This document shows, in pieces, positions 1-29,994 of a DNA stretch of 64,000 nt. Position 1 is the first letter of the stretch. Every line of letters starts with the position of its first letter. The notes under the pieces are model-generated. The model saw only the letters and a program-made list of their open reading frames with translations, was not told where the DNA came from and searched no databases. The translations under genes were made by a program, and so were the position numbers. Origin of the DNA: an uncultured Actinomycetes bacterium (GTDB lineage Bacteria; Actinomycetota; UBA4738; HRBIN12); assembly GCA_963765865.1 (NCBI GenBank), contig CAVXYE010000007.1:277923-341922 (forward strand). Direction: 5' to 3'.

Positions 1-795
1 CTTGATCGCGAGGGCGATCCGAGCGACCGATTGCGCGACCAGCAGCCCGAGGATCAAGCCGACCGTCGGCCCGACCTCGCCCTCCGGCGAACCCGATCCC
101 AACGGGAGGATGACGAGGATCACGATCAACGTGACCAGCGCAGCGCTCACGATGTCGGCCCACCACGCGACCCGCCGTCGCTCGAACCGGTCGATGAACA
201 CCCCGACGAACGGCGACAGGAACGTATAGGGGATGTAGAGCGCGAGGACGACCTTGAGGAGGTAGTCCGCCGACGGCGCCACCGAGATGTCGAAGCCCTT
301 CTCGCCGCCGAACACCAACGCTTTGAAGATGGCTCCCTGGACGACACCCTGGCCGGCCTGCGCCAGGAACTGGTAGCCCATCAGGACGGAGTAGTCGCGG
401 TTCGAGAAGACCGCGAACAGGTTGTTGAAGAATCCGCCGAACGCTTCGAGCAGACGGCGCAGCCAGGCATCGCCCAGCCGGAGCGCCGCGCCGAGGCCGA
501 TCGCGACCGCGACCACGGCCCACCCCTTCCCCGTCGAGAGGGGTCCGCGCCAGATCGCGAGGGTTCCGATCCCGGCGAGCATGATGAGCACGACGGAGAG
601 CCCGGGGATCAGCGCGAACCGATCGATCGTCGACTCGAGCCCGAACCAGCGCCCGGCGAGCCAGCCGGGCACGACCAGGAGCAGCGCGAGGATCGCGATG
701 ACGAGCAGCGTGTGCGGCAGGTTGGCGAGCGGGCCCGGGTGGTTCACGAGGGACTCGACGGTGGCGTTCGCGACGGTGTTCGCCTGCGCGACCAC
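1..795 (-). CDS. MFS-type transporter, N-terminal ~265 aa (gene continues past window start)
   Basis: Not in the supplied ORF track, because its stop lies off-window. Manual reverse-strand translation of the frame with codons at 1-3, 4-6... gives a hydrophobic multi-helix protein. It carries an MFS motif-A-like loop GVFIDRFERRRV and has strongly GC-biased third positions. The start is uncertain: in-frame GTG candidates at 747, 795 and 840. Confidence 0.45.
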   Translation of the reverse strand, partial: MVAQANTVANATVESLVNHPGPLANLPHTLLVIAILALLLVVPGWLAGRWFGLESTIDRFALIPGLSVVLIMLAGIGTLAIWRGPLSTGKGWAVVAVAIGLGAALRLGDAWLRRLLEAFGGFFNNLFAVFSNRDYSVLMGYQFLAQAGQGVVQGAIFKALVFGGEKGFDISVAPSADYLLKVVLALYIPYTFLSPFVGVFIDRFERRRVAWWADIVSAALVTLIVILVILPLGSGSPEGEVGPTVGLILGLLVAQSVARIALAIK

Positions 796-874
796 GTCGG
801 GCGGCGGCGACCACAGCCCCGGCTCCTTGACGACGACCACGTCGGGACCGATCGCGACCCCGTGCGCGAGCGCG

Positions 875-2746
875 TCATCGATGCGGCTGCTGCCGCGATG
901 CCTCGGTGCAGGTCTCGACGCCGTTGCACAGCCCGCCGTAGTACTCGCGGACGATGAACACCGCCGGCGGGTATGGATAGGTCTGCTCACGCAGCTGGAG
1001 CTCTTCGAAATGGCTCTCGGCCGCTCGGTCATAGCCGATGCTCCCGTGCGTGCTGGTGGTCACCCGGTCGGCGAGGAAGTTCTCCAATGAACCGAGGTAG
1101 GTCGCCTGGTACTTCGCCGAGGAACCGGGGAGCCCCGTTCGGAAGACGTTCGTGTAGGTCTTGGCCCACCCGTACGCCGTGTTGGTATGGGTCGCGGGAT
1201 CGTCCTCGTCGTCGTCGTTCACGATCAGGACGAGCGGTCGCACGCCCGCGGCTTCGGCCACGACGTCGACGGCGGCGAGGGAGCCGCGGACGGACTCGTC
1301 GGGATACTGGTTCGCCGCGCTGACCCAGCGGTGCTGGACGCCGTCGATCAGCAGGAAGCCCAAGGAGCCGAGGACCAGCGCGGACGCAGCGGCGACGGCG
1401 ACGATCCGGCGGGTCTGGTCGCTCCGGACGAGCGCGACCCCCGCGAGGCCCGCGATCGCGGCGACGGCGGCCACACCGAACGCCCACGGAGCGATCTGCG
1501 GTTCCGTCAGCTTCGCCGCGTCCACGAGCCACGCGACCACGACGATCCCGGCGACCACCGCGAAACCCCGGAGGAGCGACCGGCGGTCCCGCTGGGTTCG
1601 CGCCCACCAGATCAGCGCGAAGGCCCCGAGACCCACGAGCGCCATCGGCGCGGCGGTGGCGTTCATGAACCGGTAGTAGGGGACGACCGGGGAGTTCGGA
1701 TCTCCGGAGACCTGGGTGCCGGCGCCGAGCACGACCGACGCGATCCCGAGCAGCGGGAACAGCCACCAGCTCGCGGTGACGTCGAAGGTATCCGCGGGGA
1801 GCCGGCGGCGTCGCGCGAGCAGGATCGTCGACCCGATCGCCAGCGCGATGAACGGCACCACGATCACGGGCTGCATCGAGCCGATCCATTCGAGCAGTCG
1901 GTCGACGAAGAACGCCTTCGTGTACGGAGGTGGGAGGGCCGCTTCCTTGAGGCTGGCCGTGGTTCCCCAGATGCCGACGACCCAGCTGGCAAGTCCCACG
2001 AACATGCCGAGCCCGACCGAGAACAGCATCGGCCCGTCGGATCGGAGGGCTTCCCCGAGACGGAACCGGCTCGTCACGAAGTGGAACCCGAACACCGCCA
2101 GGAGCGTCGCGCCGAAGAGCACGCAGGTCGTTGGGTGGGTGAACGCGGCCGCGATCCCGATCAGGAAGAGCGCGGTTCGTGCGCCCCATGACGTCCGCGC
2201 TGCGCCGAGGAACGCCAGCATCAGGCTCAACAGGAAGAGCACGGTGATGTTGTCGAGGTAGCCGACGTAGGGCGTGGTGAGGAACAGCGCCACCGTTGCG
2301 AGCAGCATCGTGAGGAAGGCGACCGGATCCTTCCGGCTCCGCGCCGCGCCGGCCCCCAACGCGAGCCCCGTCAGGATGGGCACGCCGAGCATCAGGAGCT
2401 TGGCCATCGAGTAGGTGTCGATGCCGGCGACGCGCTGCAAGAGGGCACCCTCGAGCGGAACGGTCACCCGGTAGCCGCCCGAGAACAATCCGTCCGGTCC
2501 CCAGTCCCCGACGACGGAACCCGGATCGTCCTCCATCACGACGTTCGCCCGCCACGTGTACCAAGCGGGGTCACGGGTCGGTGCCGCCAGCGACGGGTCG
2601 GCGACGAACCGCCAGCCCAACACGCTCAGCATGAGGAGGGTGGCGGCGGCGAGGACCCACCAGGATCCGAGGCGGGCCGCGGCGACCGGCGGGCGGAGCC
2701 CGCCGGTCGCCGAGGCCGGGCTCACCTGTCGGTCGGTCGAGGTCAT
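875..2746 (-). CDS. Large polytopic membrane protein, putative GT-C-fold glycosyltransferase (ArnT/PMT/DUF2029-like) with a C-terminal extracytoplasmic domain
   Basis: ORF 875..3085, trimmed to the internal ATG at 2746 (MTSTDRQ...). This removes a 113-aa R/S-rich junk extension. About 12 predicted TM helices. The first loop carries acidic EDD/DPAWY motifs typical of GT-C enzymes. A ~200-aa soluble C-terminal domain follows. Confidence 0.55.
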   Translation of the reverse strand: MTSTDRQVSPASATGGLRPPVAAARLGSWWVLAAATLLMLSVLGWRFVADPSLAAPTRDPAWYTWRANVVMEDDPGSVVGDWGPDGLFSGGYRVTVPLEGALLQRVAGIDTYSMAKLLMLGVPILTGLALGAGAARSRKDPVAFLTMLLATVALFLTTPYVGYLDNITVLFLLSLMLAFLGAARTSWGARTALFLIGIAAAFTHPTTCVLFGATLLAVFGFHFVTSRFRLGEALRSDGPMLFSVGLGMFVGLASWVVGIWGTTASLKEAALPPPYTKAFFVDRLLEWIGSMQPVIVVPFIALAIGSTILLARRRRLPADTFDVTASWWLFPLLGIASVVLGAGTQVSGDPNSPVVPYYRFMNATAAPMALVGLGAFALIWWARTQRDRRSLLRGFAVVAGIVVVAWLVDAAKLTEPQIAPWAFGVAAVAAIAGLAGVALVRSDQTRRIVAVAAASALVLGSLGFLLIDGVQHRWVSAANQYPDESVRGSLAAVDVVAEAAGVRPLVLIVNDDDEDDPATHTNTAYGWAKTYTNVFRTGLPGSSAKYQATYLGSLENFLADRVTTSTHGSIGYDRAAESHFEELQLREQTYPYPPAVFIVREYYGGLCNGVETCTEASRQQPHR

Positions 2747-2840
2747 GGGTTCTCCGGTCGGGACTCTGCGCACGCCCACGGGCGGCGGGACGCCGACCGC
2801 GGGCGAGTGTACAGCCCGACCTCTCGCGTCACGCCTTCGC

Positions 2841-3647
2841 TCAGTCCTTCCAGGGATCGACGGCGGGCCGGGGCCGGCGAGACGGAGGCGGAGGCGGCGG
2901 TCGTCGTCGGAGGAACCAGACCGCCCCGAGCAGGACCAGCGCCGCGAGGATCGCGACGACGATCGAGCCGTTGCGCGTGCCGGTCGAACGAGACGGAGGC
3001 GCGGTCGCGCCGACCGGCGACTGACCGACCGCGAAGAACCCGAGGCGGCCGACCGCCGCGTGCACGGACTGTTGGGCGATCGCATCGTCGCTCTGGATCG
3101 CGGACCACGACCGCTCGTCCGTGGACCGGAGGATCGTGTCCGTGAACCCCACGCCCTGGAAGAGCAGCGGGTACACGAGCCCGAGCTCCCCCCGGGTGCG
3201 GAGATCGCCCACGGACGCGCCGCTCGGCTCGTACGTCGCCGTCACCCCGATCACGTTGCCGGCGATCTGCACGCCGGCGGGAAGGGTCGCGTCGGGCTTC
3301 GGGGCGAGGGGGGTCATGACGAGCTGCACCTGGGTGTCCTGCCCGTGGGGGGCGATGGCACCCTGCCCCAGCGCGAGGCTCGCCTGGAAATCCCGGGTCG
3401 AGAACACGGTGGCTGCCGACCCCTTGGTGGGGTCCAGCGCGATCATCGAACGGCCGGCACTGGGGGGTTTGTTCGTCGAGGCGAGCGCGGGGGGAGGGGC
3501 CACCCACCGGTACAGCGGCGGCGGCGCCAGCCCGTCGAGGATGGGACGACGCGACGCGGGCCCCAGCGAACCACTCACCACCGCGCCGACGAGGTAGGCG
3601 AGACACAGCGCCGCGCCGGCGACGGCGGCACGCCGGCGCGCGCTCAC
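2841..3647 (-). CDS. Hypothetical bitopic membrane protein (N-terminal signal-anchor, central soluble domain, C-terminal TM helix, Pro-rich tail)
   Basis: Protein-like part of ORF 2841..3911. The GTG start at 3647 forms a GTGA overlap with the stop of the upstream SBP gene (3644-3646). Shows N-terminal AAVAGAALCLAYLVGAVVSG, C-terminal IVVAILAALVLLGAVWFL, then RRRPPPPPPSRRPRP. Confidence 0.5.
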   Translation of the reverse strand: MSARRRAAVAGAALCLAYLVGAVVSGSLGPASRRPILDGLAPPPLYRWVAPPPALASTNKPPSAGRSMIALDPTKGSAATVFSTRDFQASLALGQGAIAPHGQDTQVQLVMTPLAPKPDATLPAGVQIAGNVIGVTATYEPSGASVGDLRTRGELGLVYPLLFQGVGFTDTILRSTDERSWSAIQSDDAIAQQSVHAAVGRLGFFAVGQSPVGATAPPSRSTGTRNGSIVVAILAALVLLGAVWFLRRRPPPPPPSRRPRPAVDPWKD

Positions 3648-4891
3648 GGCTCGATCCGGATCGCGGCGATCGGTGCGGTCGCGAACCGCTGCGGCCACAC
3701 CACCGCCCGCACCCCGGGGCGAACCCATTCCCAGATCACGCTCATCGCTCGGAGGTTGGCGCCGGGGTCCGGGGACCCCGGCGGCGCGAACGCGAGACCG
3801 CTGCCGTTCGGGAGCTCGCCGATCGGCACCCGCATCCGGAGCGCCGCGGCGGCGGCGGCCTCGGGTGTCATCTGATCCGCGGCGGGAAGCACCATGTGGA
3901 ACAGCGCCCACGCCGCGGAGAACCCGGCGAGTGCCGCCGCGCTCATCTCCTGGTGGTAGCGGCCCTCGTACGCGGTTGACGCGCGGTCGAGCAGCACCCG
4001 ACCCGAAGGGGTCAGACCCGCCGGATCGACGTATTCGCTGTCGAGCTTGTCGGAGGAGAACAGCCCGACCGCCTCGCGGCCGAGCGCCGCACCGAACGCC
4101 GGCATGCAGTAGCTCGACGACGTCCCGATGTTGGTGATGAGCCGCAGCCCCTGCCGCACCATCTCCCGGCGGAGCGCGATCCCGTCGCGGACGTACGCCG
4201 AGACGAACAGGACGTCGGGGTGCACCCTCGCGATCCGCCGGATGACCGCGCGGGCATCCAAGTGGGCCGCGTCATAGACGAAGCGGCCGACGAAGGGCAG
4301 CCCCAGCGATCTGATGCGGGCGATCGCGCCGTCGGCGACGGCGCTCCCGTACACGTCGTCCACGTTCGCCACGGCGAACCGCAACGAACGGGGGGATCGG
4401 CGGAGCATCGGGAGCAGCTGCCGATCCACGAACGAGATCGCATCGCTCCCGAGCAGTTCCCCGCTCGGCGCAACCCGGAAGAACAGCTTGCCGCCGCTGG
4501 AGGGGGACGAGGACCCGACCGCGCCCGTCTCCCAGAACAGGACGTCTCGCCGGGCGGCCTCCGCGGCGGCCGGTTGCGAGATCGTGCTCCCGTAGCTCCC
4601 GAGGATGAAGCGGATCCCTTGATCGGCGAGGTTGTCCACGGCGCCCGGGGCGGCATCGCCACCGGCGACATCCAACGGAGCGAGCTCGATCGGTCGCCCG
4701 CCGATCCCCCCGTCGGCGTTCACCAGATCGGTCGCGAGCGAGACACCGCGGAACTCGTCCCGTCCCCCGGGGCCTTGGGAACCACTGAGGGGGTAGATCG
4801 CACCGACCCGGATCGGCTCCGGGCCCCTCGAGCACGAGACGCCGCCGGCGAGCAGCGAGGAGACCGCCAGTACCGCGAGCGCCCTTCTCAT
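3644..4891 (-). CDS. Leu/Ile/Val-binding-protein family (type I periplasmic binding fold) solute-binding lipoprotein; orphan, with no cognate permease or ATPase nearby
   Basis: ORF 3644..5203, trimmed to the ATG at 4891 (MRRALAVLAVSSLLAGGVSCS...). Signal peptide ends at a Cys (lipobox-like). GAIYPLSG... matches Peripla_BP_6 / LivJ-like proteins. ATGA overlap with the upstream CPBP gene. Confidence 0.75.
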   Translation of the reverse strand: MRRALAVLAVSSLLAGGVSCSRGPEPIRVGAIYPLSGSQGPGGRDEFRGVSLATDLVNADGGIGGRPIELAPLDVAGGDAAPGAVDNLADQGIRFILGSYGSTISQPAAAEAARRDVLFWETGAVGSSSPSSGGKLFFRVAPSGELLGSDAISFVDRQLLPMLRRSPRSLRFAVANVDDVYGSAVADGAIARIRSLGLPFVGRFVYDAAHLDARAVIRRIARVHPDVLFVSAYVRDGIALRREMVRQGLRLITNIGTSSSYCMPAFGAALGREAVGLFSSDKLDSEYVDPAGLTPSGRVLLDRASTAYEGRYHQEMSAAALAGFSAAWALFHMVLPAADQMTPEAAAAAALRMRVPIGELPNGSGLAFAPPGSPDPGANLRAMSVIWEWVRPGVRAVVWPQRFATAPIAAIRIEP

Positions 4892-5466
4892 CGGAGGACG
4901 GCGACGAGGTTCGCAACGACGTGCGTCGTCGCGGGCGCGCCCCACCCCCCCGATGCCCATCGCTGCCACGACAACAGGAGCCCGGCTCCGAGGTCGACCC
5001 AGAAGACCGCCGGACCGTAGATCGGAACGTGGAGCGCCGCGAACAGGAGCGCGGACCCGCCGATCGCGATCGCCGCCCCGAACCGCACGAGCCCGCCGTA
5101 GACGAGCCGCCGGAAGAACAGCTCCTCCGACACGGCGGCGAGCGAGTTGAGCAGCAGGACCTCCGGGCCGTGCGGGACGGGGAAGCCGGGGCCGACGAGC
5201 CACGCCGCGAAGGCGATCGCGGCCACCCCCGTTGCCGTGACGATGAAGGGCGAGAGCGATGATGCATCACCCCGCGTGACCGTGGCCGCCAGCGAGGCCG
5301 AGCCCAGCACCACGTACAGCGCGGCGAACACGCCCACGGTCACGGGGAGACCGATGAACGAGGTGCGGACGAGCAGCAACGCCGAGCCGGCGATCACCGC
5401 GAGGACCATCGCCAGGTCGGCGTCGGTCGCTCGCGACCGACGCGCGTGGACCGACACCGCGATCAA
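4888..5466 (-). CDS. CPBP family intramembrane metalloprotease (CAAX protease / Abi domain)
   Basis: Shows the EELFFRRLVYGG and FAALH motifs in a polytopic membrane protein. TTG start at 5466 overlaps the stop of the lipoprotein gene (TTGA). An alternative ATG lies at 5409. Confidence 0.7.
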   Translation of the reverse strand: MIAVSVHARRSRATDADLAMVLAVIAGSALLLVRTSFIGLPVTVGVFAALYVVLGSASLAATVTRGDASSLSPFIVTATGVAAIAFAAWLVGPGFPVPHGPEVLLLNSLAAVSEELFFRRLVYGGLVRFGAAIAIGGSALLFAALHVPIYGPAVFWVDLGAGLLLSWQRWASGGWGAPATTHVVANLVAVLR

Positions 5467-5879
5467 TGCTTCACCTCGAACGCGACCTGGGCGATGACGC
5501 GCGGGTCGAACGGAAGGTGGTCGGAGGCGACGAACTCCACGCGCAACACGTGCAGGCCGGGTTGGACGGCCGTGAGCTTGGCGCTGGTGGAGAAGTTCAT
5601 CGATTCGATCTGATCGTCGAGGTACAGATGGAGATGCCCTTGATCGGGCGTGATGTTGGTGGTCGTCACCGGGACGATCGTGGCGTTCTCCAGCCGGACC
5701 TTCACGTCGACGACCGATCCGTGGACCACCTCACCGTCGGTCGGCGTCACGATCTGGACCTTGGCAGGACTGCTCGGCCTGGCGCCCGGGAGGGAGTCCG
5801 AGGCGCTGGTCGCCGACGAGCACGCGGCGCAGAGCACGAAGAGCACCAGCCACCCGACGACCGGTCGACGATCAGCCAC
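5463..5879 (-). CDS. Secreted (lipo)protein with a beta-sandwich-like domain; His-rich HLHLYLDD motif, possible metal binding
   Basis: Protein-like C-terminal 138 aa of ORF 5463..6032. Signal peptide RRPVVGWLVLFVLCAACSS. Putative GTG start at 5879, overlapping the Fur stop by 8 nt. The start is uncertain. Confidence 0.5.
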   Translation of the reverse strand: MADRRPVVGWLVLFVLCAACSSATSASDSLPGARPSSPAKVQIVTPTDGEVVHGSVVDVKVRLENATIVPVTTTNITPDQGHLHLYLDDQIESMNFSTSAKLTAVQPGLHVLRVEFVASDHLPFDPRVIAQVAFEVKH

Positions 5880-6336
5880 GGAGCGTATCGGCCCCCACCT
5901 CCGCGGCGCAATCGGCGCAGAGCCCGAGCAGGTCCAACCGGTGGGAGACTCGAGCGAACCCCGCACGCTTCGCGATCCGGTCGAGCGTTCGTTCGAGCGT
6001 TCGCTCGAGCTCCTCGGGAACGTCCACATCACGCATCTTGCCGCATCGCGAACAGACGAGGTGGTGGTGGTGGCCGATCAGGTCCTCGGCCAGCTCGTAC
6101 CGCCCGAACTCCTCATCCGTCACCAGCCGGCGCACCACCCCGGCCTGCTCGAGCGCGGCGAGGTTCCGGTAGACCGAGCTCTGTTTGAGACCGGAGCCGC
6201 CCGCGAGGATGTCCGGGATCGACACGGGGCTCCCCGCGTCGGCGAGCAGCTCGATCAATCGCCGACGTTGCGTCGTGTACCGCTGGCCGGCTGACCGGAG
6301 CCTCGCCGTCGCGGTCGCGTCGAGGTCGAAGCTCAT
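5872..6336 (-). CDS. Fur family transcriptional regulator (Fur/Zur/PerR-like)
   Basis: 154 aa. HTH-like N-terminus, HHHHLVCSRCGK...CADC with two CxxC pairs. ATG at 6336 with a strong SD (GGAGAGGAAcacggATG). ATGA overlap with the upstream GT4 stop. Confidence 0.85.
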   Translation of the reverse strand: MSFDLDATATARLRSAGQRYTTQRRRLIELLADAGSPVSIPDILAGGSGLKQSSVYRNLAALEQAGVVRRLVTDEEFGRYELAEDLIGHHHHLVCSRCGKMRDVDVPEELERTLERTLDRIAKRAGFARVSHRLDLLGLCADCAAEVGADTLRG

Positions 6337-7595
6337 CCGTGTTCCTCTCCGCGGAGCTCGAACAACGCCTCCGGGTACCGGACGCCGAGGCCGCGAGCTG
6401 CGTGCCGCGGGCCGAGGCCCGCGGGACGCAGCCCGCGCGCCCACCGCGCGATCGCGTTCCGGACGGGATCGGCGCGGAGCGCGACCAGGTCGTCGATCGC
6501 CTCCAGGTACACCGCAGCGGTCGTCGCGGGCGCCAGCGCATCGCGCGCGTACGCCCCCGCACGGTCGCCGATCGCCGCTCGACCCTGCGGGTCGCCGGCG
6601 AGTCGATCGATGACGTCCGCGAGCTCTTCCGGATCGGGCCGTCCCGGCCCGATCCGGACCACGACGTCGTCGGGGACCTCGAGGTACGTGCCGACGCCGC
6701 TCACGATCGTGGGCGTTCCCACCTGGAGGGCTCGCACGAGCGAGCCGCTGGACTCGCCCCGGTGCGGATACCGGAGGTTGACCAGGATGTCGAAGGCGCT
6801 CAGCCACGCGAGGAACTCGTCGTCGGCGACATCCGCGAAGACACGTACCCGCCCCCCGACGCCGGCGTCGCGGATCGCGGCGTCGACGTCCCACCCACCT
6901 CGTCGTCCGACGAGGACGAGCCGGACGGTCGAACGGACGTGTGCGAGCGCTTCGAGGAGCTGCGGGATCCCCTTCGTGGCGTTGAGGTCGCCCGCGACCC
7001 CGACCACGACCTCATCGGGACCTGCCACGCCGGCACGAAGCTCGTGCCCGCGGACCCGAGCACGCTCGATGTCCGCTTCCCGCTCAACGGTGGGGTGCGG
7101 CGCCACGAGGACGGGCGTCAGGCATCCGACCCGGTCGAGGTAGCTCTTCGCGAAGCCCGAATGGACGATGACGGCACGTGCGCGTCGAACGAGTTGCGCG
7201 CACCAAGGGACCCCGAGCGGATCGTCGTGATCCGCTCCCCTCGGCGTCGCGGCGATCGCTTCCTGGCGCGCGGGCGCGGCGAGCGGGCTCCTCACCTCGC
7301 CGAGGCCCCAGATCAGACCGTCGACCGCGAGGTCGTGGAGCACCACCACCCCCGGATGCCAGACCGACAGTGCGTAGATGTCGCCGTGGAACTCCACGTT
7401 GTTGCCGATCTGGTAGATGCCGACGTCGGCTGCGCGGACGCGCGCGCCGGCGTCGGGTTCGAACGGCGACACCGGATCGATCATGTGTCCGGACGCCGCG
7501 TCGATGTGGTCGAGCCCCTCGAGGACGGACGCCGCGTACGTCGCGATCCCGGTCTTCGCCGGAGGGAGCGGCGAGACGAACGCGACCGTCGCCAT
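6333..7595 (-). CDS. Glycosyltransferase family 4 (GT-B, Glycos_transf_1)
   Basis: 420 aa. C-terminal Glycos_transf_1 signature (RGESSGSLVRALQVGTPTIVSGVGTYLEV). 1-bp TGATG overlap with the upstream GT4. Confidence 0.8.
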   Translation of the reverse strand: MATVAFVSPLPPAKTGIATYAASVLEGLDHIDAASGHMIDPVSPFEPDAGARVRAADVGIYQIGNNVEFHGDIYALSVWHPGVVVLHDLAVDGLIWGLGEVRSPLAAPARQEAIAATPRGADHDDPLGVPWCAQLVRRARAVIVHSGFAKSYLDRVGCLTPVLVAPHPTVEREADIERARVRGHELRAGVAGPDEVVVGVAGDLNATKGIPQLLEALAHVRSTVRLVLVGRRGGWDVDAAIRDAGVGGRVRVFADVADDEFLAWLSAFDILVNLRYPHRGESSGSLVRALQVGTPTIVSGVGTYLEVPDDVVVRIGPGRPDPEELADVIDRLAGDPQGRAAIGDRAGAYARDALAPATTAAVYLEAIDDLVALRADPVRNAIARWARGLRPAGLGPRHAARGLGVRYPEALFELRGEEHG

Positions 7596-8647
7596 CAGCC
7601 GAGGAGACGGCGGACGACGCCGGGCCAGTCGGGCATCTTCTCGGCGACGAACGTTCGGCCGGCCGCGCCCAGACGTTCCCCTCGCGCGCGATCGTGGAAG
7701 AGCTCGTCGAACGCCGCCGCGATCTGCTCGGGCTCCGGCTCCACGATGACCCCGGTCTCCTCGTTCCGAGCGAACTCGAGCGGGCCACCGGAGTCCGTGG
7801 TCACGATGACGGGCCGGCCCGCGGCCATCGCCTCGATCGTCACGTAGCCGTAGTCCTCCTCATAGGGACCGAAGTAGACGCCCAGCGCGTCGCGATAGAG
7901 CTCGATCAACTCGTCGTCCGATACGCCGACGCGGATCTCGACGCGATCGGCCAGCCGCGCGTCCGCGATGCGCGTCCGGATCTTCTCGAGCTCGGTTCCC
8001 GACCCGACGAGCAACAACCGGACGTCCGACCGCACGTGCTGCATCGCATCGACGGCAAGCGCCTGCCGTTTCAGGGGGTCGAATCGGCTGGGGAACAGGA
8101 GGTAATCGCCTCCACCGTCACCGGGATCACGAGCCAACAGACGCTCGGTGAGATCGGAGCGATGGTAGAGGACCTCGCCGCGCACCCCGAGGGATCGCTC
8201 GAGCCGGCCCTTCACGTTCTCGGAATTCGTGAAGATCCGTTCGGCCTCCCCGAACGCGAGACGGTCGGAGGCGACCACCAGATCCCGGATCGCCGATCCG
8301 TCGGGAGCTTTGGAGAGATCGCCGAAGCCCGGATGACCCCACAGCTCATAGGCCGTGCGTTGCTGGTGGATGAGCCAGATGATCTTGCGCGGATGGTTGA
8401 CCAGGTATGCGGGAAACTTCATCGCGACGACGAGGTCGATGGACATCCCGTTGGCTTCGCGCAGATCGAGGCTCCGCCAGAGCCCCATCTGGTGCACCAG
8501 CTCCGAGGGTGGTGCCCACTGGAACGGGATCGTGGCGATCTCGGCCTCGTGACCGGCCTCGCGCAAGGCGCGGATCAATCCGTTGGCGTGCGTTTCGGCG
8601 CCGCCGGACATGAACGGGGGCTGGGGATGGCACACGAGGATCCGCAT
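7595..8647 (-). CDS. Glycosyltransferase family 4 (GT-B)
   Basis: 350 aa. EDYGYVTIEAMAAGRPVIVT...GG..E signature. 1-bp overlap with the upstream methyltransferase stop. Confidence 0.8.
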   Translation of the reverse strand: MRILVCHPQPPFMSGGAETHANGLIRALREAGHEAEIATIPFQWAPPSELVHQMGLWRSLDLREANGMSIDLVVAMKFPAYLVNHPRKIIWLIHQQRTAYELWGHPGFGDLSKAPDGSAIRDLVVASDRLAFGEAERIFTNSENVKGRLERSLGVRGEVLYHRSDLTERLLARDPGDGGGDYLLFPSRFDPLKRQALAVDAMQHVRSDVRLLLVGSGTELEKIRTRIADARLADRVEIRVGVSDDELIELYRDALGVYFGPYEEDYGYVTIEAMAAGRPVIVTTDSGGPLEFARNEETGVIVEPEPEQIAAAFDELFHDRARGERLGAAGRTFVAEKMPDWPGVVRRLLG

Positions 8648-9876
8648 CAGGGCTTCCTCGCGATCAGGGCGTAGTCCTGGGGTCGTTCGTCCTCGTCGGC
8701 GTTCATCAAACGAACCTCGGCCGAATCGAAGCCGGCGAAGCCGGCCATCACGCGGAGCGTCTCGGGGTTCGCGGGCCAGGTGTGGGTGATGTCACCGAAG
8801 AACCATCTGGCGAGCGCATCCACGTTCAGAGGGTAGATGGTCTCCACGACCAGGGCCCCGCCCGGGGCGAGCGCTCGTTGCGCATATTGCAGGAGCGGGA
8901 GCCAGGACGCCGGCGGAAGGTGTTCGACGACCTGGATCGCGCTCATCGCCGCCGGAGCCTCTCCCTCGTACGTGAGCAGGAAGTCGGGCAACGTCCCTTC
9001 GACGGCATCGATGCCACGCTCCTCGCACGTCGCGACGGCCTGCGCCGAGATATCCATGCCGAGCACCCGCCAGCCCCATCCCTGGAGCAGCGCGAGGAAC
9101 TGGCCCTCCCCGCATCCCAGATCGAGCCACAGCGGCGTACCTCCGTGTTGCGTCCGCAGCTGATCGGCGAGATCCCGATACTGGAGCAGCTTCTGCTCGA
9201 TCGACTCCTGCGAGCCGCGGAGCGCGGCTTCGAACCTCCAGTAGAACGCGTCCGGCAGGGCGGCCTCGGGATGGGGGGCCGGTGCCGCCGCGGCTGCCGG
9301 CGTGGATGCGGGCGCCGAACCGGTCACGCCGCCCGCCGACGCGAGCCGTCGGGACAACGCTTCGAGCTCTGAAGCCGCCGATCCGATCCGAACATCGTGT
9401 TCGTGGGCGACGGTCTGCGATGCCCGTAACGCCGTTCGGACCTCGTCCCACGCCGCCTCGGCCCGGCGAAGATCGGACCGGAGTTCCTGGAGCTCCGACG
9501 TGAGGCCGGCGATCTCCTGGCGGGCCGCCTCGAGCTCCCGGGACGTCTCGAGTCCGAGCAGCGCCAGGTCGGCGCCGATCCGGTCGTACCGGCGCATCAA
9601 CGGACGGAGCAACCGGAAGGTGAGCCGCTTGATCCTCCGCTTCAGCGGGCGACCCATCTGGAGGATCTGATCGTCCGGGAGCGGTCGGGAAGCGTGATCG
9701 CGACGAAGCGTCGCCTCCAGCTCCCCCCAGCGGATCGCGAGGTCCGACGTTCCGTCGGCCGATCGGGATCCCGGCGACGAACCGGACACGGGTGGCGCCG
9801 CCCAGTACAGCTCGCGGGCGAGTGAATCGGCGGCGGTCTCCTCCGTCGTCGACGTCCGTGCCTCGTCGCCCGTCAC
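8647..9876 (-). CDS. Class I SAM-dependent methyltransferase with an N-terminal coiled-coil region (WbdD-like architecture)
   Basis: Motif I LDLGCGEGQF and C-terminal Rossmann fold. About 150 aa of heptad-like LE/AR-rich sequence before the MT domain. GTG start at 9876, 4 nt after the mutY stop. Confidence 0.65.
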   Translation of the reverse strand: MTGDEARTSTTEETAADSLARELYWAAPPVSGSSPGSRSADGTSDLAIRWGELEATLRRDHASRPLPDDQILQMGRPLKRRIKRLTFRLLRPLMRRYDRIGADLALLGLETSRELEAARQEIAGLTSELQELRSDLRRAEAAWDEVRTALRASQTVAHEHDVRIGSAASELEALSRRLASAGGVTGSAPASTPAAAAAPAPHPEAALPDAFYWRFEAALRGSQESIEQKLLQYRDLADQLRTQHGGTPLWLDLGCGEGQFLALLQGWGWRVLGMDISAQAVATCEERGIDAVEGTLPDFLLTYEGEAPAAMSAIQVVEHLPPASWLPLLQYAQRALAPGGALVVETIYPLNVDALARWFFGDITHTWPANPETLRVMAGFAGFDSAEVRLMNADEDERPQDYALIARKP

Positions 9877-9880
9877 GAGC

Positions 9881-10834
9881 TCATCCCTCCGGTCGGGTGG
9901 CGGCCGAAAGGCTAAACGAATCGGAAGACCGACCGGGTTCGCGGTTCGAACGCTCCGACGGGTGGTTCACGGGAAGGCGGAACGAGCGGCCACGCCGCTC
10001 GACGATCCCGTCGCGGACGAGTCCGGTGACCGCCGACCCGACGCGATCGGCTCCGAACCCCGTCGCCGCGGCCAAGCCCAAGAGACCTGCCGACGGCCGC
10101 TCACGCAACACCGCCACGATCCGCCCGCGGACCTGACGGTTCGATCCCTCGAAGGGCGACTGCTTGGGGGCGACGGCCGACCTCCCGGGCCTGCCGGCGC
10201 TGCGGAACCGGCACCACGGCTCGAGCGGACACACATCGCATCGAGGCGTCGGGCGGCACACCTCGCGCCCGAGGTCCATCATCGCCTGGTTCCAGGTCGC
10301 GGGGTCACGCCGATCGAGCAGGACCCGAGCGGCCGCCGCGATCCGAGGACCGTCACGTTCCTCCGGCTCGCGACCGAGCACGACACGCGACGCTACCCGA
10401 CGAACGTTGACGTCCATCGCGACGACCGGCCGGCCGAACGCGATCGCTGCGACGGCCGACGCGGTATAGGGACCGACCCCCGGGAGCTGCTGGAGCGCTC
10501 CCGGATCGTCCGGCACCTCTCCACCGTGGACCCGGACGATGGTTCGAGCGGCCTCCTGCAGGGCGACGGCACGCCGGTGATACCCGAGCCCGGACCATGC
10601 GCGGAGCACGTCGGCCGGCGCCGCGGCCGCGAGGCTCGATACGTTCGGGAACCGCCGGAGGAACCGATCGAAGGCCGCAGCGACGCGGGCGGCCTGCGTC
10701 TGCTGCAGCATCACCTCGCTGACGAGGACCGCGTAGGGACCGATCCCGTCCCGGCGCCAGGGGTACCCCTCGCGCCGCGGGCGATACCAGGCGCGCAGCG
10801 CTCGTCGAAGGGGGCTAGGCTCAAGAGCGGTCAT
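9881..10834 (-). CDS. mutY: A/G-specific adenine DNA glycosylase (MutY; HhH-GPD superfamily with 4Fe-4S loop)
   Basis: ORF 9881..11065, trimmed to the ATG at 10834 by alignment to the MutY N-terminus (LRAWY..PWR..PY.VLVSEVMLQQTQ). Shows HhH motif LPGVGPYTA and CRPTPRCDVCPLEPWC. Confidence 0.8.
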   Translation of the reverse strand: MTALEPSPLRRALRAWYRPRREGYPWRRDGIGPYAVLVSEVMLQQTQAARVAAAFDRFLRRFPNVSSLAAAAPADVLRAWSGLGYHRRAVALQEAARTIVRVHGGEVPDDPGALQQLPGVGPYTASAVAAIAFGRPVVAMDVNVRRVASRVVLGREPEERDGPRIAAAARVLLDRRDPATWNQAMMDLGREVCRPTPRCDVCPLEPWCRFRSAGRPGRSAVAPKQSPFEGSNRQVRGRIVAVLRERPSAGLLGLAAATGFGADRVGSAVTGLVRDGIVERRGRSFRLPVNHPSERSNREPGRSSDSFSLSAATRPEG

Positions 10835-11195
10835 GCCGGCCATCCGCGAGCTCATGAGCATCGATCTCATCTCGGTCCCGCCCACGGCGACCGTCGCCGA
10901 GGCCGCCCAGGTGATGAGCCTCCAGCACGTCGGCGCTGCCCTCGTGATCGACGGTGAGGACCTGGTCGGCATCTTCACGGAGCGGGACATCGTGCGGGCG
11001 CTTGCCGCGGAGCACGACGCGGCAACCCATGAGGTCGGGGAGTGGATGACCAAGGACCCGGTCACCTTGGACGCCGACGCGTCCGCTCAGGAAACGCTCG
11101 CGCTGATGCTGGCCAAGGGGTTCCGTCATGTCCCCGTGACGGAGACCGGGCTGCTCGTCGGCATCGTGTCGATGCGTGATCTCTCCATCCGATGA
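10833..11195 (+). CDS. CBS domain pair protein
   Basis: 120 aa. Two CBS repeats (ELMSIDLISV...GIFTERDIVRAL; EWMTKDPVTL...GIVSMRDL). ATG at 10833 overlaps the divergent mutY ATG. Confidence 0.7.
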   Translation: MPAIRELMSIDLISVPPTATVAEAAQVMSLQHVGAALVIDGEDLVGIFTERDIVRALAAEHDAATHEVGEWMTKDPVTLDADASAQETLALMLAKGFRHVPVTETGLLVGIVSMRDLSIR

Positions 11196-11229
11196 CGGGC
11201 GGCTCCGTTGCCGGCCCGTGACGCCGTTG

Positions 11230-11412
11230 CTAGAAGCCGGCCCGAGACTCGGAGTTGATCATGGCTGTGACGACCTCTTGGAGCGCCGCGTGGACGGCGC
11301 GGAAGATGTCCGCCACCTGGTCCGGCGTCGCCGTCGCGGCCGAGCCTCTGGCCGCCATCGCCGTGATGTCGCATGCCTTGTCGAACACGTGCCAGTCGCT
11401 CTCGCGGGACAT
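11230..11412 (-). CDS. Small hypothetical protein (60 aa)
   Basis: Strong RBS (GAGGAGGAAcatccgATG). About 90% GC at third positions. The antisense ORF 11255..11470(+) is compositionally poor. Confidence 0.5.
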   Translation of the reverse strand: MSRESDWHVFDKACDITAMAARGSAATATPDQVADIFRAVHAALQEVVTAMINSESRAGF

Positions 11413-11513
11413 CGGATGTTCCTCCTCGTGGTTCCGCTCGTGGATGGGAGATCCTCGCCACCCAGGCTAGCCGAAGAGCATGGACATCGAAGTCGAGGAC
11501 CTCGAACGATGTC

Positions 11514-11536
11514 GGAACCGCCTTCGGCCGTTCGTC
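11514..11536 (+). promoter_or_regulatory. Candidate ECF-type promoter (GGAAC-N14-CGTC) upstream of the yciI-like/sigma operon
   Basis: GGAACcgccttcggccgttCGTCaa lies about 50 nt upstream of the ATG at 11588. The spacing is slightly short of the canonical 16-17 nt. Confidence 0.25.
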
Positions 11537-11587
11537 AACTAGGGTGAACGGGCGGCATCAGGCCGGCCTCGGCCCAGGAGGGTGTGC

Positions 11588-11935
11588 ATGAAGTATGCGT
11601 TGTTGATCTACGCGGACGAGAAGGCGTGGGCGTCGGTCCCACACGATGAGCAGCACGCGATCTACGAGGAGTACGACAAGTTCGCGAACGAGCTCGTCGA
11701 GCGCGGCGTGATGCGCGGCGGCGACCAGCTCGCGGACAGCCCGGCCGCCACCACCGTCCGCGTGCGGGACGGCCAGCAGCTCGTCACCGATGGTCCGTTC
11801 GCGGAGACGAAGGAGCAGCTCGGCGGCTACTTCCTGGTTGAGGTCGACGACCTCGACACCGCGATCGAGCTCGCGGGCAAGCTCCCGGGGGCGCGGCACG
11901 GCTCCGTGGAGGTGCGCCCCATCATCGAGGGATGA
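11588..11935 (+). CDS. YciI-like (YCII-related/DGPF domain) protein
   Basis: MKYALLIY...DGPFAETKEQLGGYFLVEVDDLDTAIELAGKLP. ATG at 11588 with SD AGGAGGG. ATGA overlap with the sigma gene. Confidence 0.8.
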   Translation: MKYALLIYADEKAWASVPHDEQHAIYEEYDKFANELVERGVMRGGDQLADSPAATTVRVRDGQQLVTDGPFAETKEQLGGYFLVEVDDLDTAIELAGKLPGARHGSVEVRPIIEG

Positions 11936-13152
11936 CCGACGCGCTCGGAGCCCTCGAGCGATCCTTCCGGCAGGGCTCCGGGCGGGCGGTGGCGGCCCTG
12001 ATCCGGGTCACGGGGGACTTCGACCTCGCCGAGGAGGCGGTCCAGGACGCGTTCGAGGTCGCGCTGCGCACCTGGCCGAGCCGCGGCGTGCCGGACAACC
12101 CTGAGGCATGGATCGTGACGACCGCGCGCAACCGCGCGATCGACAAGCTCCGGCGTGAGCGCGTCGGCCGGGCGAAGACCGAGGCCGCCGCGCAGATCGC
12201 CGAGCTGGAGACCATCGGAGCCGACGTGCAGGAGATCCCGGACGACCGCCTCCGGCTCCTCTTCACGTGTTGCCATCCGGCCCTCGCGATGGACGCCCGG
12301 GTCGCGCTGACGCTCCGAACGGTCGCGGGGCTGTCGACCCGCGAGATCGCGCGGGCATTCCTCGTTCCGGAGCCGACCCTCGGGCAACGTCTCACCCGCG
12401 CGAAGCGCAAGATCCGCGACGCCGCGATCCCGTACCGCGTGCCGCCGAGGGAGCTCCTGCCGGAACGTCTCGACGGCGTGCTCGCCGTTCTGTACCTGGT
12501 CTTCAACGAGGGATACGCCGCGACCCAGGGCGAGCTGCTTCGAGCCGAGATGGGCGACGAGGCGATCCGGCTGGCCCGGCTCGTCGATCGGCTCCTCCCG
12601 GGGGACGAGGACGTTCGCGCCCTGCTCGCGCTGATGCTGCTCCAGCACGCCCGTCGCGCCGCTCGAACCGACGGGGCGGGCGACCTCGTCCTGCTCGAGG
12701 ACCAGGACCGCTCCCGATGGGATCACGTCATGATCGACGAGGGGCTGTCGTTGCTGTCCGAGGCCGCGCGGCGCCCGGGCGCCTATCGCGTGCAGGCCGA
12801 GATCGCCGCGTGTCACGCCCGGGCGCCGCGCCCCGAAGACACTGACTGGCCCGAGATCGCGACCCTGTACGGCCGTTTGGCGACGCTCCAGCCGTCGCCG
12901 GTCGTCGAGCTCAATCGGGCGGCCGCCGTCGCGATGGCCGACGGGCCCGAGACCGGGCTGCGGATGCTCGTGCCGCTCCAAGCCGACCTGGATCGCTATC
13001 ACCTGTTCCATTCCGCCAAGGCCGATCTGCTCCGTCGCGCCGGGCGGACCGACGACGCGGTCGAGGCGTACCGGCGGGCGCTCGACCTGACGACGAATGA
13101 CGCCGAACGTCGCTTCTTGGAGCGACGGCTGACTGCGCTGCAGCGAGCCTGA
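11932..13152 (+). CDS. ECF-type RNA polymerase sigma factor with a long C-terminal extension (sigma-24-like / DUF6596-type)
   Basis: Sigma-70 region 2 (PEAWIVTTARNRAIDKLRRER) and region 4 (LSTREIARAFLVPEPTLGQRLTRAKRKIR), plus a ~230-aa helical C-terminal domain. This is the classic pairing with YciI-like genes. Confidence 0.8.
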   Translation: MTDALGALERSFRQGSGRAVAALIRVTGDFDLAEEAVQDAFEVALRTWPSRGVPDNPEAWIVTTARNRAIDKLRRERVGRAKTEAAAQIAELETIGADVQEIPDDRLRLLFTCCHPALAMDARVALTLRTVAGLSTREIARAFLVPEPTLGQRLTRAKRKIRDAAIPYRVPPRELLPERLDGVLAVLYLVFNEGYAATQGELLRAEMGDEAIRLARLVDRLLPGDEDVRALLALMLLQHARRAARTDGAGDLVLLEDQDRSRWDHVMIDEGLSLLSEAARRPGAYRVQAEIAACHARAPRPEDTDWPEIATLYGRLATLQPSPVVELNRAAAVAMADGPETGLRMLVPLQADLDRYHLFHSAKADLLRRAGRTDDAVEAYRRALDLTTNDAERRFLERRLTALQRA

Positions 13153-29965: not shown

Positions 29966-29994
29966 CCGCCCTCCTTGCGCCGACCGAGGGTAGC

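What the first reader, a model, noticed from the sequence alone, without database searches (positions are those of the whole stretch)
5463..6336. Fur-family metalloregulator translationally coupled to a His-motif lipoprotein inside a glycosyltransferase operon
Fur/Zur genes normally sit with metal uptake genes. Here the regulator has its own strong SD, overlaps the upstream GT4 stop (ATGA), and is overlapped by a downstream secreted beta-sandwich protein carrying HLHLYLDD, a possible metal site. This arrangement suggests a metal-sensing checkpoint on envelope glycan synthesis, or a moonlighting regulator.
Basis: partly seen in the sequence, partly recalled or inferred. Interest (0 to 1): 0.5.

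Follow-up and report, generated by a model that had tools for sequence, protein, structure and literature searches.

The report
Orphaned zinc regulator beside metal lipoprotein
The regulator is an ordinary zinc-uptake-type (Zur-like) repressor that lost its neighbouring zinc transporter genes through a deletion and so ended up fused to a sugar-transferase operon by accident; the lipoprotein after it opens an uncharacterised four-gene envelope cassette that elsewhere sits beside copper and zinc uptake genes.

Summary
A 154-aa Fur-family gene (5872-6336, minus strand) overlaps the stop of a GT4 gene (ATGA). A lipoprotein gene (5463-5879) overlaps it by 8 nt and carries GHLHLYLDD. The interpretation as a metal checkpoint on glycan synthesis is not supported.

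In 21 related loci, orthologues at 64-85% identity are the last gene of a znu(A)CB-fur operon in the same synteny. Nearly all of these operons are preceded by a palindrome, ATGAGAATCATTCTCAT. Only the window's own narrow clade (Fur 96-99% identical) lacks znuACB.

The GT4 tail (…LRGEEHG*) and the SD/ATGA junction resemble the znuB 3' end of relatives (…LRQEEHG*). This points to a deletion of about 2.6 kb that fused GT4 to the end of znuB. No operator remains in the 64 kb.

The regulator is still under strong purifying selection (dN/dS 0.04-0.07).

The lipoprotein is an Ig-like β-sandwich with invariant His82, His84, Asp88, His110, Glu115, Asp120 and His121. It heads a conserved cassette of lipoprotein, CPBP protease, orphan binding protein and a 266-aa anchored protein. 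Outside this clade the cassette mostly follows a CopC-CopD gene, and in several lineages it abuts znu loci.

The zur part is a gene-order accident. The cassette is the only interesting part.

The parts
5872..6336 (-). Fur-family regulator, 154 aa. It is the orthologue of the terminal gene of znu(A)CB-fur operons, so Zur-like. Recognition helix KQSSVYRNLAALEQAG is at 6139-6186, HHHH at 6061-6072, CxxC at 6043-6054 and 5908-5919.
   Evidence: Pfam FUR E=4.5e-18. Best PDB sequence matches are M. tuberculosis Zur 2O03 and S. coelicolor Zur 3MWM (E about 6e-14). Orthologue context table. All family-invariant residues are retained. dN/dS is 0.04-0.07 within the znu-less clade.
6333..6355 (-). Junction segment. 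It holds the last ~7 codons of the GT4 ORF (…LRGEEHG*), the SD GGAGAGGAA (6342-6350) and the ATGA stop/start overlap (6333-6336). It is inferred to derive from the 3' end of a deleted znuB.
   Evidence: Window CTCCGCGGAGAGGAACACGGATGA compared with L021/L044/L023 znuB ends CTCCGACAGGAGGAGCACGGATGA (…ALRQEEHG*): 17 of 23 nt match upstream of the ATG. The GT4 orthologue in L012 ends …AQMRSQR* instead.
6333..7595 (-). GT4 glycosyltransferase (GT4b), 420 aa
   Evidence: Pfam Glyco_trans_1_4 and Glycos_transf_1
7595..8647 (-). GT4 glycosyltransferase (GT4a), 350 aa
   Evidence: Pfam Glycos_transf_1 E=2.6e-28
8647..9876 (-). SAM-dependent methyltransferase with an N-terminal coiled-coil region, 409 aa
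   Evidence: Pfam Methyltransf_23/25/11
9881..10834 (-). MutY-like adenine glycosylase. It is the first gene of the tightly packed minus-strand string and is divergent from the CBS gene at 10833-11195 (+).
   Evidence: TIGR01084 mutY E=8e-63, below its cut-off; Pfam HhH-GPD
5463..5879 (-). DUF6130/DUF4399-like lipoprotein, 138 aa. Lipobox Cys20 is at 5820-5822 and the motif H82-D89 (HLHLYLDD) at 5613-5636. Invariant residues are H82, H84, D88, H110, E115, D120 and H121. It is the first gene of the four-gene cassette.
   Evidence: Pfam; alignments A1/A2; AF2 model and fold searches; context statistics
4888..5466 (-). CPBP (Rce1-like) intramembrane glutamic protease, 192 aa. Its TTG start overlaps the lipoprotein stop (TTGA).
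   Evidence: Pfam Rce1-like E=1.5e-11; sequence. It follows the lipoprotein gene in 68 of 81 related loci.
3644..4891 (-). Orphan type-1 periplasmic binding lipoprotein (Peripla_BP_6), 415 aa, with an ATGA overlap with the CPBP gene. No permease or ATPase is in the cassette.
   Evidence: Pfam Peripla_BP_6 E=9.6e-30
2841..3647 (-). Conserved 268-aa protein with no family ('U266'). It has an N-terminal TM/signal segment and a C-terminal TM followed by an Arg/Pro-rich tail. Its GTG start overlaps the binding-protein stop (GTGA). It is the last gene of the cassette.
   Evidence: Sequence; no Pfam match; weak LPXTG_anchor hit below cut-off; conserved downstream partner
2747..2840 (-). Intergenic region with the conserved promoter-like element GTACACTCGCCCGCG upstream of the large membrane-protein gene. 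It marks the right-hand boundary of the cassette insertion.
   Evidence: The same element lies directly after the fur stop in L012, which lacks the cassette.

Best explanation
The Fur-family gene is the orthologue of a Zur-type, most likely zinc-sensing, repressor.

Ancestrally it was the last, translationally coupled gene of a znuA-znuC-znuB-zur operon. That operon was controlled through a 7-1-7 palindrome (ATGAGAAT-C-ATTCTCAT) at the znuA promoter or start.

In the lineage of this window a deletion of about 2.6 kb removed the operator and znuACB. It joined the 3' end of the upstream GT4 gene, in frame, to the last few codons of znuB. The regulator therefore kept znuB's Shine-Dalgarno sequence and the ATGA stop/start overlap, and now looks as if it belongs to the glycosyltransferase operon.

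Separately, a four-gene envelope cassette was inserted exactly between the zur stop codon and the promoter of the next gene. The cassette encodes a His-rich Ig-like lipoprotein, a CPBP intramembrane protease, an orphan binding protein and a 266-aa anchored protein.

Inferred consequences: zur is now transcribed by read-through from the MutY/methyltransferase/GT4 string and has lost autoregulation. It still works in trans on TGAGAAnnnTTCTCA boxes elsewhere in the genome.

The lipoprotein is most likely an extracytoplasmic metal-binding (Cu or Zn) protein that uses the invariant His/Asp/Glu cluster. Its position after zur reflects the tendency of this cassette to lodge next to metal-homeostasis loci, not control of glycan synthesis.

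Shown: orthology, synteny, loss of znuACB and the operator, junction similarity, purifying selection, residue invariance, cassette contexts.

Inferred: zinc as the effector, read-through transcription, metal binding by the lipoprotein.
For: (a) Context of orthologues. In 21 related loci at 64-85% identity, Fur directly follows ZnuC-ZnuB (ZnuA is present in several). They share the synteny CBS / MutY … Fur … large membrane protein. L012 (85%) reads MT-GT4-GT4-ZnuA-ZnuC-ZnuB-Fur-MFS. The window layout is seen only in the 96-99% clade.

(b) Operator. 16 of 19 znu upstream regions examined carry one copy of ATGAGAATCATTCTCAT with 4 or fewer mismatches; L022's best copy lay outside the stretch first searched and scores 32.0 bits in the PWM scan. 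A PWM built from them scores 24-37 bits on the training sites and 24-32 bits on held-out loci (L020, L022, L038, L045). It gives one hit per 10-20 kb locus. The window's maximum is 13.4 bits, inside CBS codons.

(c) Transporter type. The linked SBP is closest to the zinc proteins AdcA, YcdH and Lmb. The His-His-His-Glu positions align. NCBIfam's best matches are AztC, AztB and AztA.

(d) Junction. The GT4 tail and SD/ATGA resemble znuB ends of L021, L044, L023, L003 and L012.

(e) Selection. Fur dN/dS is 0.04-0.07 at dS 0.32-0.43 among znu-less relatives. All invariant residues and the recognition helix are retained.

(f) Insertion site. The cassette boundary coincides with the fur stop and the conserved GTACACTCGCCCGCG element.

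(g) Cassette contexts. Of 51 informative loci, 25 have CopC-CopD-YtkA directly upstream and 3 have a divergent copper cluster. 17 have Fur upstream: 16 from the window clade plus L074, which still has znuCB. Others abut znu loci (L107/L103, L112 with a 22.9-bit box, L117/118, L121).

(h) Lipoprotein. Invariant C20, H82, H84, D88, H110, E115, D120 and H121, and a confident beta-sandwich model.
Against: Sequence alone does not place the regulator firmly in Zur. PDB scores to Zur (about 56 bits) are only slightly above those to Fur and PerR (about 51 bits). NCBIfam ranks Fur models first, all far below cut-off.

By alignment, the Asp and Cys ligands of the regulatory M-site of actinobacterial Zur (ScZur D65, C79) are Arg69 and Ala83 here. 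The sensing site must therefore differ.

The znuB-tail similarity covers only about 23 nt and includes the SD, which is functionally constrained. The exact breakpoints are therefore suggestive, not proven.

No target operator of this regulator has been seen in this genome; only 64 kb was available.

Metal binding by the lipoprotein is untested, and the fold matches are generic.
Confidence: 0.72

Rival explanations
1. The link between zur and the cassette is functional. The lipoprotein-CPBP-binding protein-U266 cassette would be a zinc (or general divalent-metal) acquisition or handling module. In this clade it would have taken the place of znuACB next to zur, and it would be co-expressed with, or controlled by, the regulator.
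For: The cassette, or the larger cluster containing it, abuts zinc loci in at least six different architectures:
- the window clade;
- L074 (znuCB-fur-cassette);
- L107/L103 (znuA divergent, start codons about 57 nt apart, with an AGAATCATTCT palindrome between them);
- L112 (znuA divergent, 22.9-bit box between);
- L117/118 (a second znu type, with an ArsR/SmtB gene directly upstream of the lipoprotein gene);
- L121 (canonical znuACB-zur directly upstream).

The His/Asp/Glu residues are invariant. The cassette includes a solute-binding protein.
Against: Outside the window clade the dominant neighbour is a CopC-CopD fusion (25 of 51, plus 3 divergent). Its CopC domain has the N-terminal His and the D-x-H motif typical of Cu(II) sites.

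The cassette has no permease or ATPase.

No operator lies in front of it in the window, in close relatives or in L074.

L074 keeps znuCB as well, so the cassette is not a replacement there.

The fur-to-MFS interval holds unrelated inserts in other relatives, so it is a variable spot.
Confidence: 0.17
2. One reading: the regulator was recruited into the glycosyltransferase operon so that envelope glycan synthesis responds to metal status, or the regulator moonlights in it.
For: There is tight physical coupling (ATGA overlap, spacers of 4 nt or less from MutY to U266). The arrangement is stable across 20 independent contigs of the clade. MT-GT4-GT4 also lies just upstream of znuACB-fur in L012 and in the contig of P0031.
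Against: No operator lies upstream of the string. A regulator gene at the 3' end of an operon does not make that operon metal-responsive.

In relatives the GT genes and fur are separated by znuACB with its own operator.

The GT alleles swap (about 66% against about 90% aa) while Fur stays 96-99% identical.

The SD and overlap are explained by inheritance from the znuB junction.
Confidence: 0.04
3. The regulator senses something other than zinc (Mn, Fe, Ni or peroxide). The lost transporter would then have been a Mn/Fe importer of the ZnuA/TroA family.
For: The canonical Zur M-site ligands are missing. NCBIfam ranks Fur models above Zur. The PF01297/ABC-3 families also include Mn/Fe systems. 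A separate canonical Zur type with a TGAAAnnnnnTTTCA-like box exists in related soil Actinomycetota (L121).
Against: The linked SBP is closest to the Zn-specific AdcA, YcdH, Lmb and AztC, well ahead of MntC, PsaA and SitA. At the third ligand position it has His rather than Glu. The statement that His marks Zn sites and Glu marks Mn sites is established knowledge of cluster A-I binding proteins, recalled and not recomputed here. NCBIfam ranks the canonical Zur of L121 under Fur models too, so that ranking is not diagnostic.
Confidence: 0.07

Closest known systems
Actinobacterial Zur (M. tuberculosis FurB/Zur, PDB 2O03; S. coelicolor Zur, PDB 3MWM), encoded with or next to znuABC and binding palindromic Zur boxes (review PMC6103462)
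   Same: Fur-family fold. Cys4 structural site (two CxxC). HHHH hinge motif directly before the first CxxC. A conserved His before the second CxxC. These are the best PDB sequence matches. Orthologues are the terminal gene of a Zn-type ABC importer operon with a 7-1-7 palindromic operator.
   Different: Only about 30-35% identical. By alignment the ScZur M-site ligands Asp65 and Cys79 are Arg69 and Ala83. The operator core is TGAGAA…TTCTCA, whereas L121's canonical-type box reads TTGAAATCCGTTTTCA. In this window the importer genes and the operator are gone.
B. subtilis ycnKJI copper-uptake cluster: YcnJ = CopC-CopD fusion, YcnI = membrane-anchored Cu(II)-binding protein (PMC8424229, PMC12154828)
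   Same: Outside the window clade the lipoprotein gene usually lies directly after a CopC-CopD(-YtkA) fusion gene. That gene is preceded by a secreted, C-terminally anchored protein whose predicted mature N-terminus is His. This would make the lipoprotein an accessory extracytoplasmic metal-binding protein beside a CopCD importer.
   Different: The lipoprotein has no detectable sequence similarity to YcnI, CopC or PCuAC. Its fold matches are generic Ig/Fn3. No CopCD gene is in this window. The cassette also carries a CPBP protease, a type-1 binding protein and a 266-aa protein that the ycn cluster lacks.
Pfam DUF6130 (PF19625) / DUF4399 (PF14347)
   Same: The lipoprotein scores 25.9 bits on DUF6130 (cut-off 23.7). 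Its C-terminal 'GxHxL…EFVAxDHxP' part matches DUF4399 positions 52-84 (26.5 bits, cut-off 28).
   Different: Both are families of unknown function. The only functional remark found in the library is that characterisation is scarce (10.1101/2025.10.26.684697). The scores are borderline, so this is a divergent soil-Actinomycetota branch.

Membership tests
Fur family (PF01475) | Winged-helix DNA-binding domain plus dimerisation domain matching the family profile above the gathering score | tested here: met
   66 bits against a cut-off of 23.1, profile positions 2-120 of 121
Zur (zinc uptake regulator) subfamily | Structural Cys4 zinc site (CxxC … CxxC) | tested here: met
   C95, C98, C140 and C143 are invariant in alignment A3
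Zur (zinc uptake regulator) subfamily | Regulatory site ligands of actinobacterial Zur (ScZur M-site D65, C79, H85, H87; D-site H84, H86, E105, H122) | tested here: inconclusive
   The His ligands are conserved (H89-H92, H132). D65 aligns with R69 and C79 with A83. Invariant E84 and near-invariant E81 lie nearby (D85 is Asp or Glu) and might substitute. The site numbering is recalled from the ScZur literature.
Zur (zinc uptake regulator) subfamily | Genetic linkage to, and operator in front of, a zinc importer | tested here: met
   Met for the orthologues: 21 loci with znu(A)CB-fur, nearly all with the palindrome (one site per locus in the PWM scan), and a Zn-type SBP. Not met in the window itself: no ZnuA or ZnuB and no box in 64 kb.
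Zur (zinc uptake regulator) subfamily | Zn(II)-dependent binding to the operator and repression | not testable with these tools
   Needs EMSA or footprinting with purified protein
Zur (zinc uptake regulator) subfamily | Groups with characterised Zur proteins in a Fur-family phylogeny | tested here: inconclusive
   Only score ranking was possible. Zur 2O03/3MWM give 55.8/55.7 bits, against C. jejuni Fur 51.2 and B. subtilis PerR 51.0. NCBIfam equivalog models are all far below cut-off and rank even a canonical Zur (L121) under Fur.
Bacterial lipoprotein | Signal peptide with a lipobox ending in an invariant Cys | tested here: met
   MADRRPVVGWLVLFVLCAAC|SS. Cys20 is invariant and Ser21 nearly so in 32 homologues. 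No dedicated lipoprotein predictor was available.
DUF6130 (PF19625) / DUF4399 (PF14347) | Profile match above the gathering score | tested here: met
   DUF6130: 25.9 bits against 23.7, so met narrowly. DUF4399: 26.5 bits against 28, so not met.
Extracytoplasmic metallochaperones / metal-binding Ig-like proteins (CopC, YcnI, PCuAC) | Sequence or specific structural similarity, and a demonstrated metal site | tested here: not met

The most novel reading that the evidence does not exclude
The cassette of DUF6130-like lipoprotein, CPBP protease, orphan binding protein and 266-aa protein could be an undescribed extracytoplasmic metal-trafficking module of soil Actinomycetota.

Its His-rich Ig-like lipoprotein would bind Cu(II) and/or Zn(II) and hand it to importers (CopCD, Znu). 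In some lineages, including this one, the module would have come under or beside Zur control as part of the zinc-limitation response.

A side claim: the regulator represents a distinct Zur-like branch with a non-canonical sensing site and a TGAGAAnnnTTCTCA operator.
Probability: 0.3. Interest if true: 0.55.

Novelty: new member of a known kind. Interest (0 to 1): 0.3.

Why it matters
For the finding as stated, the value is corrective. A regulator that appears embedded in a glycan operon is a zur left behind by a deletion. Tight stop/start coupling can be inherited from a vanished neighbour and is not always evidence of a functional partnership.

Two by-products may be useful.

(1) The analysis gives a defined operator (ATGAGAATCATTCTCAT) and an orthologue set for a Zur-like branch common in uncultured soil Actinomycetota. 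This would allow regulon prediction in those MAGs.

(2) The four-gene envelope cassette is conserved and completely uncharacterised. Its invariant His/Asp/Glu lipoprotein recurs next to CopCD and Znu loci, which makes it a candidate for a new metal-handling component at the actinobacterial cell surface.

Tried and rejected
- **Operator search in the window.** The consensus with 3 or fewer mismatches gave one hit, at 10854-10870. It lies inside the first codons of the CBS gene (…ELMSIDLIS…), scores 13.4 bits against 24-37 for real sites, and is conserved in relatives simply as coding sequence. I rejected it as an operator.
- **Generic promoter/terminator scan of 1-12000.** No promoters and one terminator-like site, fewer than in shuffles. 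Uninformative in this 69% GC genome.
- **Rfam and tRNA scans of the window.** Nothing found.
- **znuA/B/C homologues in the window.** Only generic ABC ATPases at 58.8-60.5 kb.
- **Profile search of the lipoprotein family against PDB sequences.** No meaningful hit.
- **Literature on DUF4399/DUF6130.** Three papers, none functional.
- **Is the 236-aa protein upstream of CopCD a YcnI homologue?** No sequence support. It is kept only as a lead (predicted mature N-terminal His, C-terminal anchor).
- **Subfamily assignment of the regulator by NCBIfam equivalogs.** Not diagnostic.
- **Pseudogenisation of the orphaned regulator.** Rejected on dN/dS.
- **Assembly chimera at the GT4-fur junction.** Rejected, because 20 independent contigs share it.
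Full report
**Observation**

On the minus strand the window carries nine tightly packed genes:

| Coordinates | Gene |
|---|---|
| 9881-10834 | MutY-like glycosylase |
| 8647-9876 | SAM methyltransferase |
| 7595-8647 | GT4 glycosyltransferase (GT4a) |
| 6333-7595 | GT4 glycosyltransferase (GT4b) |
| 5872-6336 | Fur-family protein |
| 5463-5879 | 138-aa lipoprotein |
| 4888-5466 | CPBP/Rce1-like intramembrane protease |
| 3644-4891 | Peripla_BP_6 binding lipoprotein |
| 2841-3647 | 268-aa protein with no family ('U266') |

All junctions have spacers of 4 nt or less:

- GT4b/Fur overlap as ATGA (6333-6336), with GGAGAGGAA at 6342-6350.
- Fur/lipoprotein overlap as GTGGCTGA (5872-5879).
- Lipoprotein/CPBP overlap as TTGA.
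- CPBP/binding protein overlap as ATGA.
- Binding protein/U266 overlap as GTGA.

The Fur assignment is solid: PF01475 at 66 bits, an HHHH motif and two CxxC pairs. The lipoprotein carries GHLHLYLDD at residues 81-89. It narrowly passes DUF6130 and narrowly misses DUF4399.

**What the regulator is**

Homologues are abundant in soil metagenomes and uncultured Actinomycetota MAGs. I fetched 38 loci from species-representative genomes, plus several metagenome contigs, and mapped the neighbours by tblastn.

In 21 related loci, orthologues at 64-85% identity directly follow ZnuC and ZnuB. ZnuA is present in many of these loci. The chromosomal frame matches the window: MBOAT, sigma factor, YCII, CBS, MutY on one side and a ~1215-aa membrane protein on the other.

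L012 (85% identical) reads methyltransferase-GT4-GT4-ZnuA-ZnuC-ZnuB-Fur-membrane protein. That is the window's gene order plus znuACB and minus the cassette.

Only the closest relatives (96-99% identical Fur) share the window's layout. They comprise four MAGs and 16 metagenome contigs.

The substrate-binding protein of the linked transporter is most similar to the zinc proteins AdcA, YcdH and Lmb (E=1e-49 to 1e-34). It is clearly less similar to Mn/Fe proteins. The His, His, His and Glu positions of AdcA align with identical residues. NCBIfam ranks AztC, AztB and AztA first.

The znu operons examined carry one palindrome close to ATGAGAATCATTCTCAT upstream of, or overlapping, their first gene:

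- A weight matrix built from 16 sites scores 24-37 bits on those sites.
- It scores 24-32 bits on loci not used for training.
- It finds essentially one site per locus.

Such 7-1-7 palindromes are the usual form of Zur and Fur operators (PMC6103462). Taken together, the protein is the orthologue of a Zur-type regulator of a zinc importer.

Sequence alone is less decisive:

- The best PDB matches are M. tuberculosis and S. coelicolor Zur, but only about 5 bits ahead of a Fur and a PerR.
- Two non-His ligands of the actinobacterial Zur regulatory site align with Arg69 and Ala83.
- The family is therefore a distinct Zur-like branch.
- A canonical Zur type with a different box also exists in related bacteria (L121).

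**How the regulator came to sit after a GT4 gene**

I compared the junctions.

- In the window, GT4b ends …EALFELRGEEHG* and runs into ATGA.
- In L012 the orthologous GT4b ends …DALAQMRSQR*.
- The znuB genes of L021, L044 and L023 end …ALRQEEHG* and run into ATGA or GTGA with fur.
- At the DNA level the window's CTCCGCGGAGAGGAACACGGATGA matches the znuB ends (CTCCGACAGGAGGAGCACGGATGA) at 17 of 23 positions upstream of the ATG. Similarity to znuB stops further upstream.

The simplest reading is a deletion of about 2.6 kb, measured against L012. It would run from the last codons of GT4b to the last codons of znuB, in frame. It would have removed the operator and znuACB and left fur with the ribosome-binding site and overlap it already had.

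The 'own strong SD' and the 'translational coupling' are thus inherited features. The breakpoint assignment rests on a short stretch that includes a constrained SD, so I treat it as probable rather than proven.

No ZnuA or ZnuB homologue and no operator-like site remain in the 64 kb. The single weak match, at 10854-10870, lies in CBS codons and scores 13.4 bits.

The regulator is not decaying:

- Within the znu-less clade dN/dS is 0.04-0.07 at dS 0.32-0.43. This is lower than for its neighbours.
- Every residue that is invariant among znu-linked orthologues is retained, including the recognition helix KQSSVYRNLA.

It must therefore still have targets elsewhere.

**Does it control glycan synthesis?**

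Nothing supports this.

- There is no operator in front of the string.
- A regulator gene at the distal end of a transcript does not make that transcript metal-responsive.
- Within the clade the methyltransferase/GT4 genes occur as two allele classes (about 90-98% and about 65-69% aa identity), while Fur stays at 96-99%. This is typical of recombining surface-glycan loci and not of a co-adapted unit.

**The lipoprotein and its cassette**

An alignment of 32 homologues (52-87% identity) shows these invariant residues: Cys20 (lipobox), His82, His84, Asp88, His110, Glu115, Asp120 and His121.

Eighty metagenome loci, plus locus L008 fetched earlier, show that the lipoprotein gene is the first gene of a conserved cassette: lipoprotein, CPBP, binding protein, U266. 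CPBP follows in 68 of the 81 loci, and most of the remainder are truncated contigs.

In the 51 loci with enough upstream sequence, the upstream neighbour is:

| Upstream neighbour | Loci |
|---|---|
| CopC-CopD-YtkA fusion gene | 25 |
| Divergent copper cluster containing a paralogue of the lipoprotein | 3 |
| Fur: window clade (16) plus L074, which still has znuCB before fur | 17 |
| Other (including znu-adjacent L107, L117, L118) | 6 |

The CopC domain has the N-terminal His and D-x-H residues of Cu(II) sites. That identification of the Cu(II) motif is from recalled knowledge of CopC.

The cassette or its larger cluster also abuts zinc loci in other ways:

- **L107/L103:** znuA is divergent, and an AGAATCATTCT palindrome lies in the ~57 nt between the two start codons.
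- **L112:** znuA is divergent from the CopCD-lipoprotein cluster, with a 22.9-bit box between them.
- **L117/118:** a second znu type is present, with an ArsR/SmtB gene directly before the lipoprotein gene.
- **L121:** a canonical znuACB-zur lies directly upstream of the cluster.

In the window the cassette sits exactly between the fur stop and the conserved promoter-like element GTACACTCGCCCGCG of the next gene. In L012 that element follows fur directly. The fur-to-membrane-protein interval holds unrelated inserts in other relatives, so it is a variable spot.

My reading is that the lipoprotein is an extracytoplasmic metal-binding protein, with Cu or Zn undecided. The cassette tends to lodge in metal-homeostasis neighbourhoods. 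Whether it is functionally tied to zur in this clade is open. I give that rival about 0.17.

**Verdict**

The glycan-checkpoint interpretation is not supported. The metal link of the lipoprotein is supported by conservation and context but remains untested.

The regulator is a new member of a known kind: a Zur-like repressor, here orphaned by a deletion. The more novel element is the uncharacterised four-gene cassette.

I rate interest at 0.3. The most novel reading not excluded is a new metal-trafficking envelope module partly under Zur control, at about 0.3 probability.

Noticed in passing
window 1-2746 (-), break near 887-933: The large membrane-protein gene downstream of the cassette is split into two reading frames in the window. 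Its orthologues are 1215-1224 aa and annotated MFS_1 in L003 and L007. tblastn aligns residues 1-620 to 2746-887 and residues 613-915 to 930-1. This is either a frameshift (pseudogene) or an assembly or sequencing error.
   Followed up: partly
window 29991-30010: TAGCTTTGTCTGACAAATAA is the only 20-mer with 30% GC or less in the 69% GC window. It contains the perfect palindrome TTTGTC-T-GACAAA. It lies just upstream of an amino-acid permease ORF (30050-32074), which is followed by a glutamine-synthetase-like gene (32128-33525). It could be an operator.
   Followed up: no
window 2841-3647 (-) and 4888-5466 (-): U266 ends with a TM helix plus an RRR/Pro-rich tail. It gives a sub-threshold LPXTG-anchor hit (14 against 15.9 bits). 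The adjacent CPBP protease gives weak hits to Mrt-type glutamic intramembrane proteases, which process C-terminal sorting signals. The two may form a dedicated sorting or processing pair.
   Followed up: partly
window 6333-9876 (-); loci L006, L010, L056, L058, L065-L067 compared with L007, L009, L051, L061, L062: Within the clade the methyltransferase/GT4/GT4 genes occur as two allele classes (about 90-98% and about 65-69% aa identity to the window). The flanking Fur stays at 96-99%. This suggests recombinational replacement of the glycan genes.
   Followed up: partly
L008 4604-7995 and equivalents (L078, L080, L082, L085, L087, L088, L102, L112, L121, L122): A conserved copper-type cluster precedes the cassette in most relatives. 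It comprises a 201-aa polytopic membrane protein, a 236-aa secreted protein whose predicted mature N-terminus is His and which has a C-terminal anchor (no family match), and a CopC-CopD-YtkA fusion. A conserved promoter-like TGTCGG-N17-TATCCT lies upstream.
   Followed up: partly
L121 1300-4504; L118 4426-7473: Related soil Actinomycetota carry other zinc systems at or near the same spot. One is a canonical znuACB-zur whose box reads TTGAAATCCGTTTTCA. Another is a second znu type divergent from an ArsR/SmtB-family gene. At least three regulator/importer combinations therefore occupy this neighbourhood.
   Followed up: partly
window 10833-10843: The start codons of the divergent CBS gene (+, 10833) and the MutY-like gene (-, 10834 or 10843) overlap or abut. 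The promoters of both the nine-gene string and the CBS gene must therefore lie inside each other's coding regions. The same layout is annotated in L006, L007 and L009.
   Followed up: no
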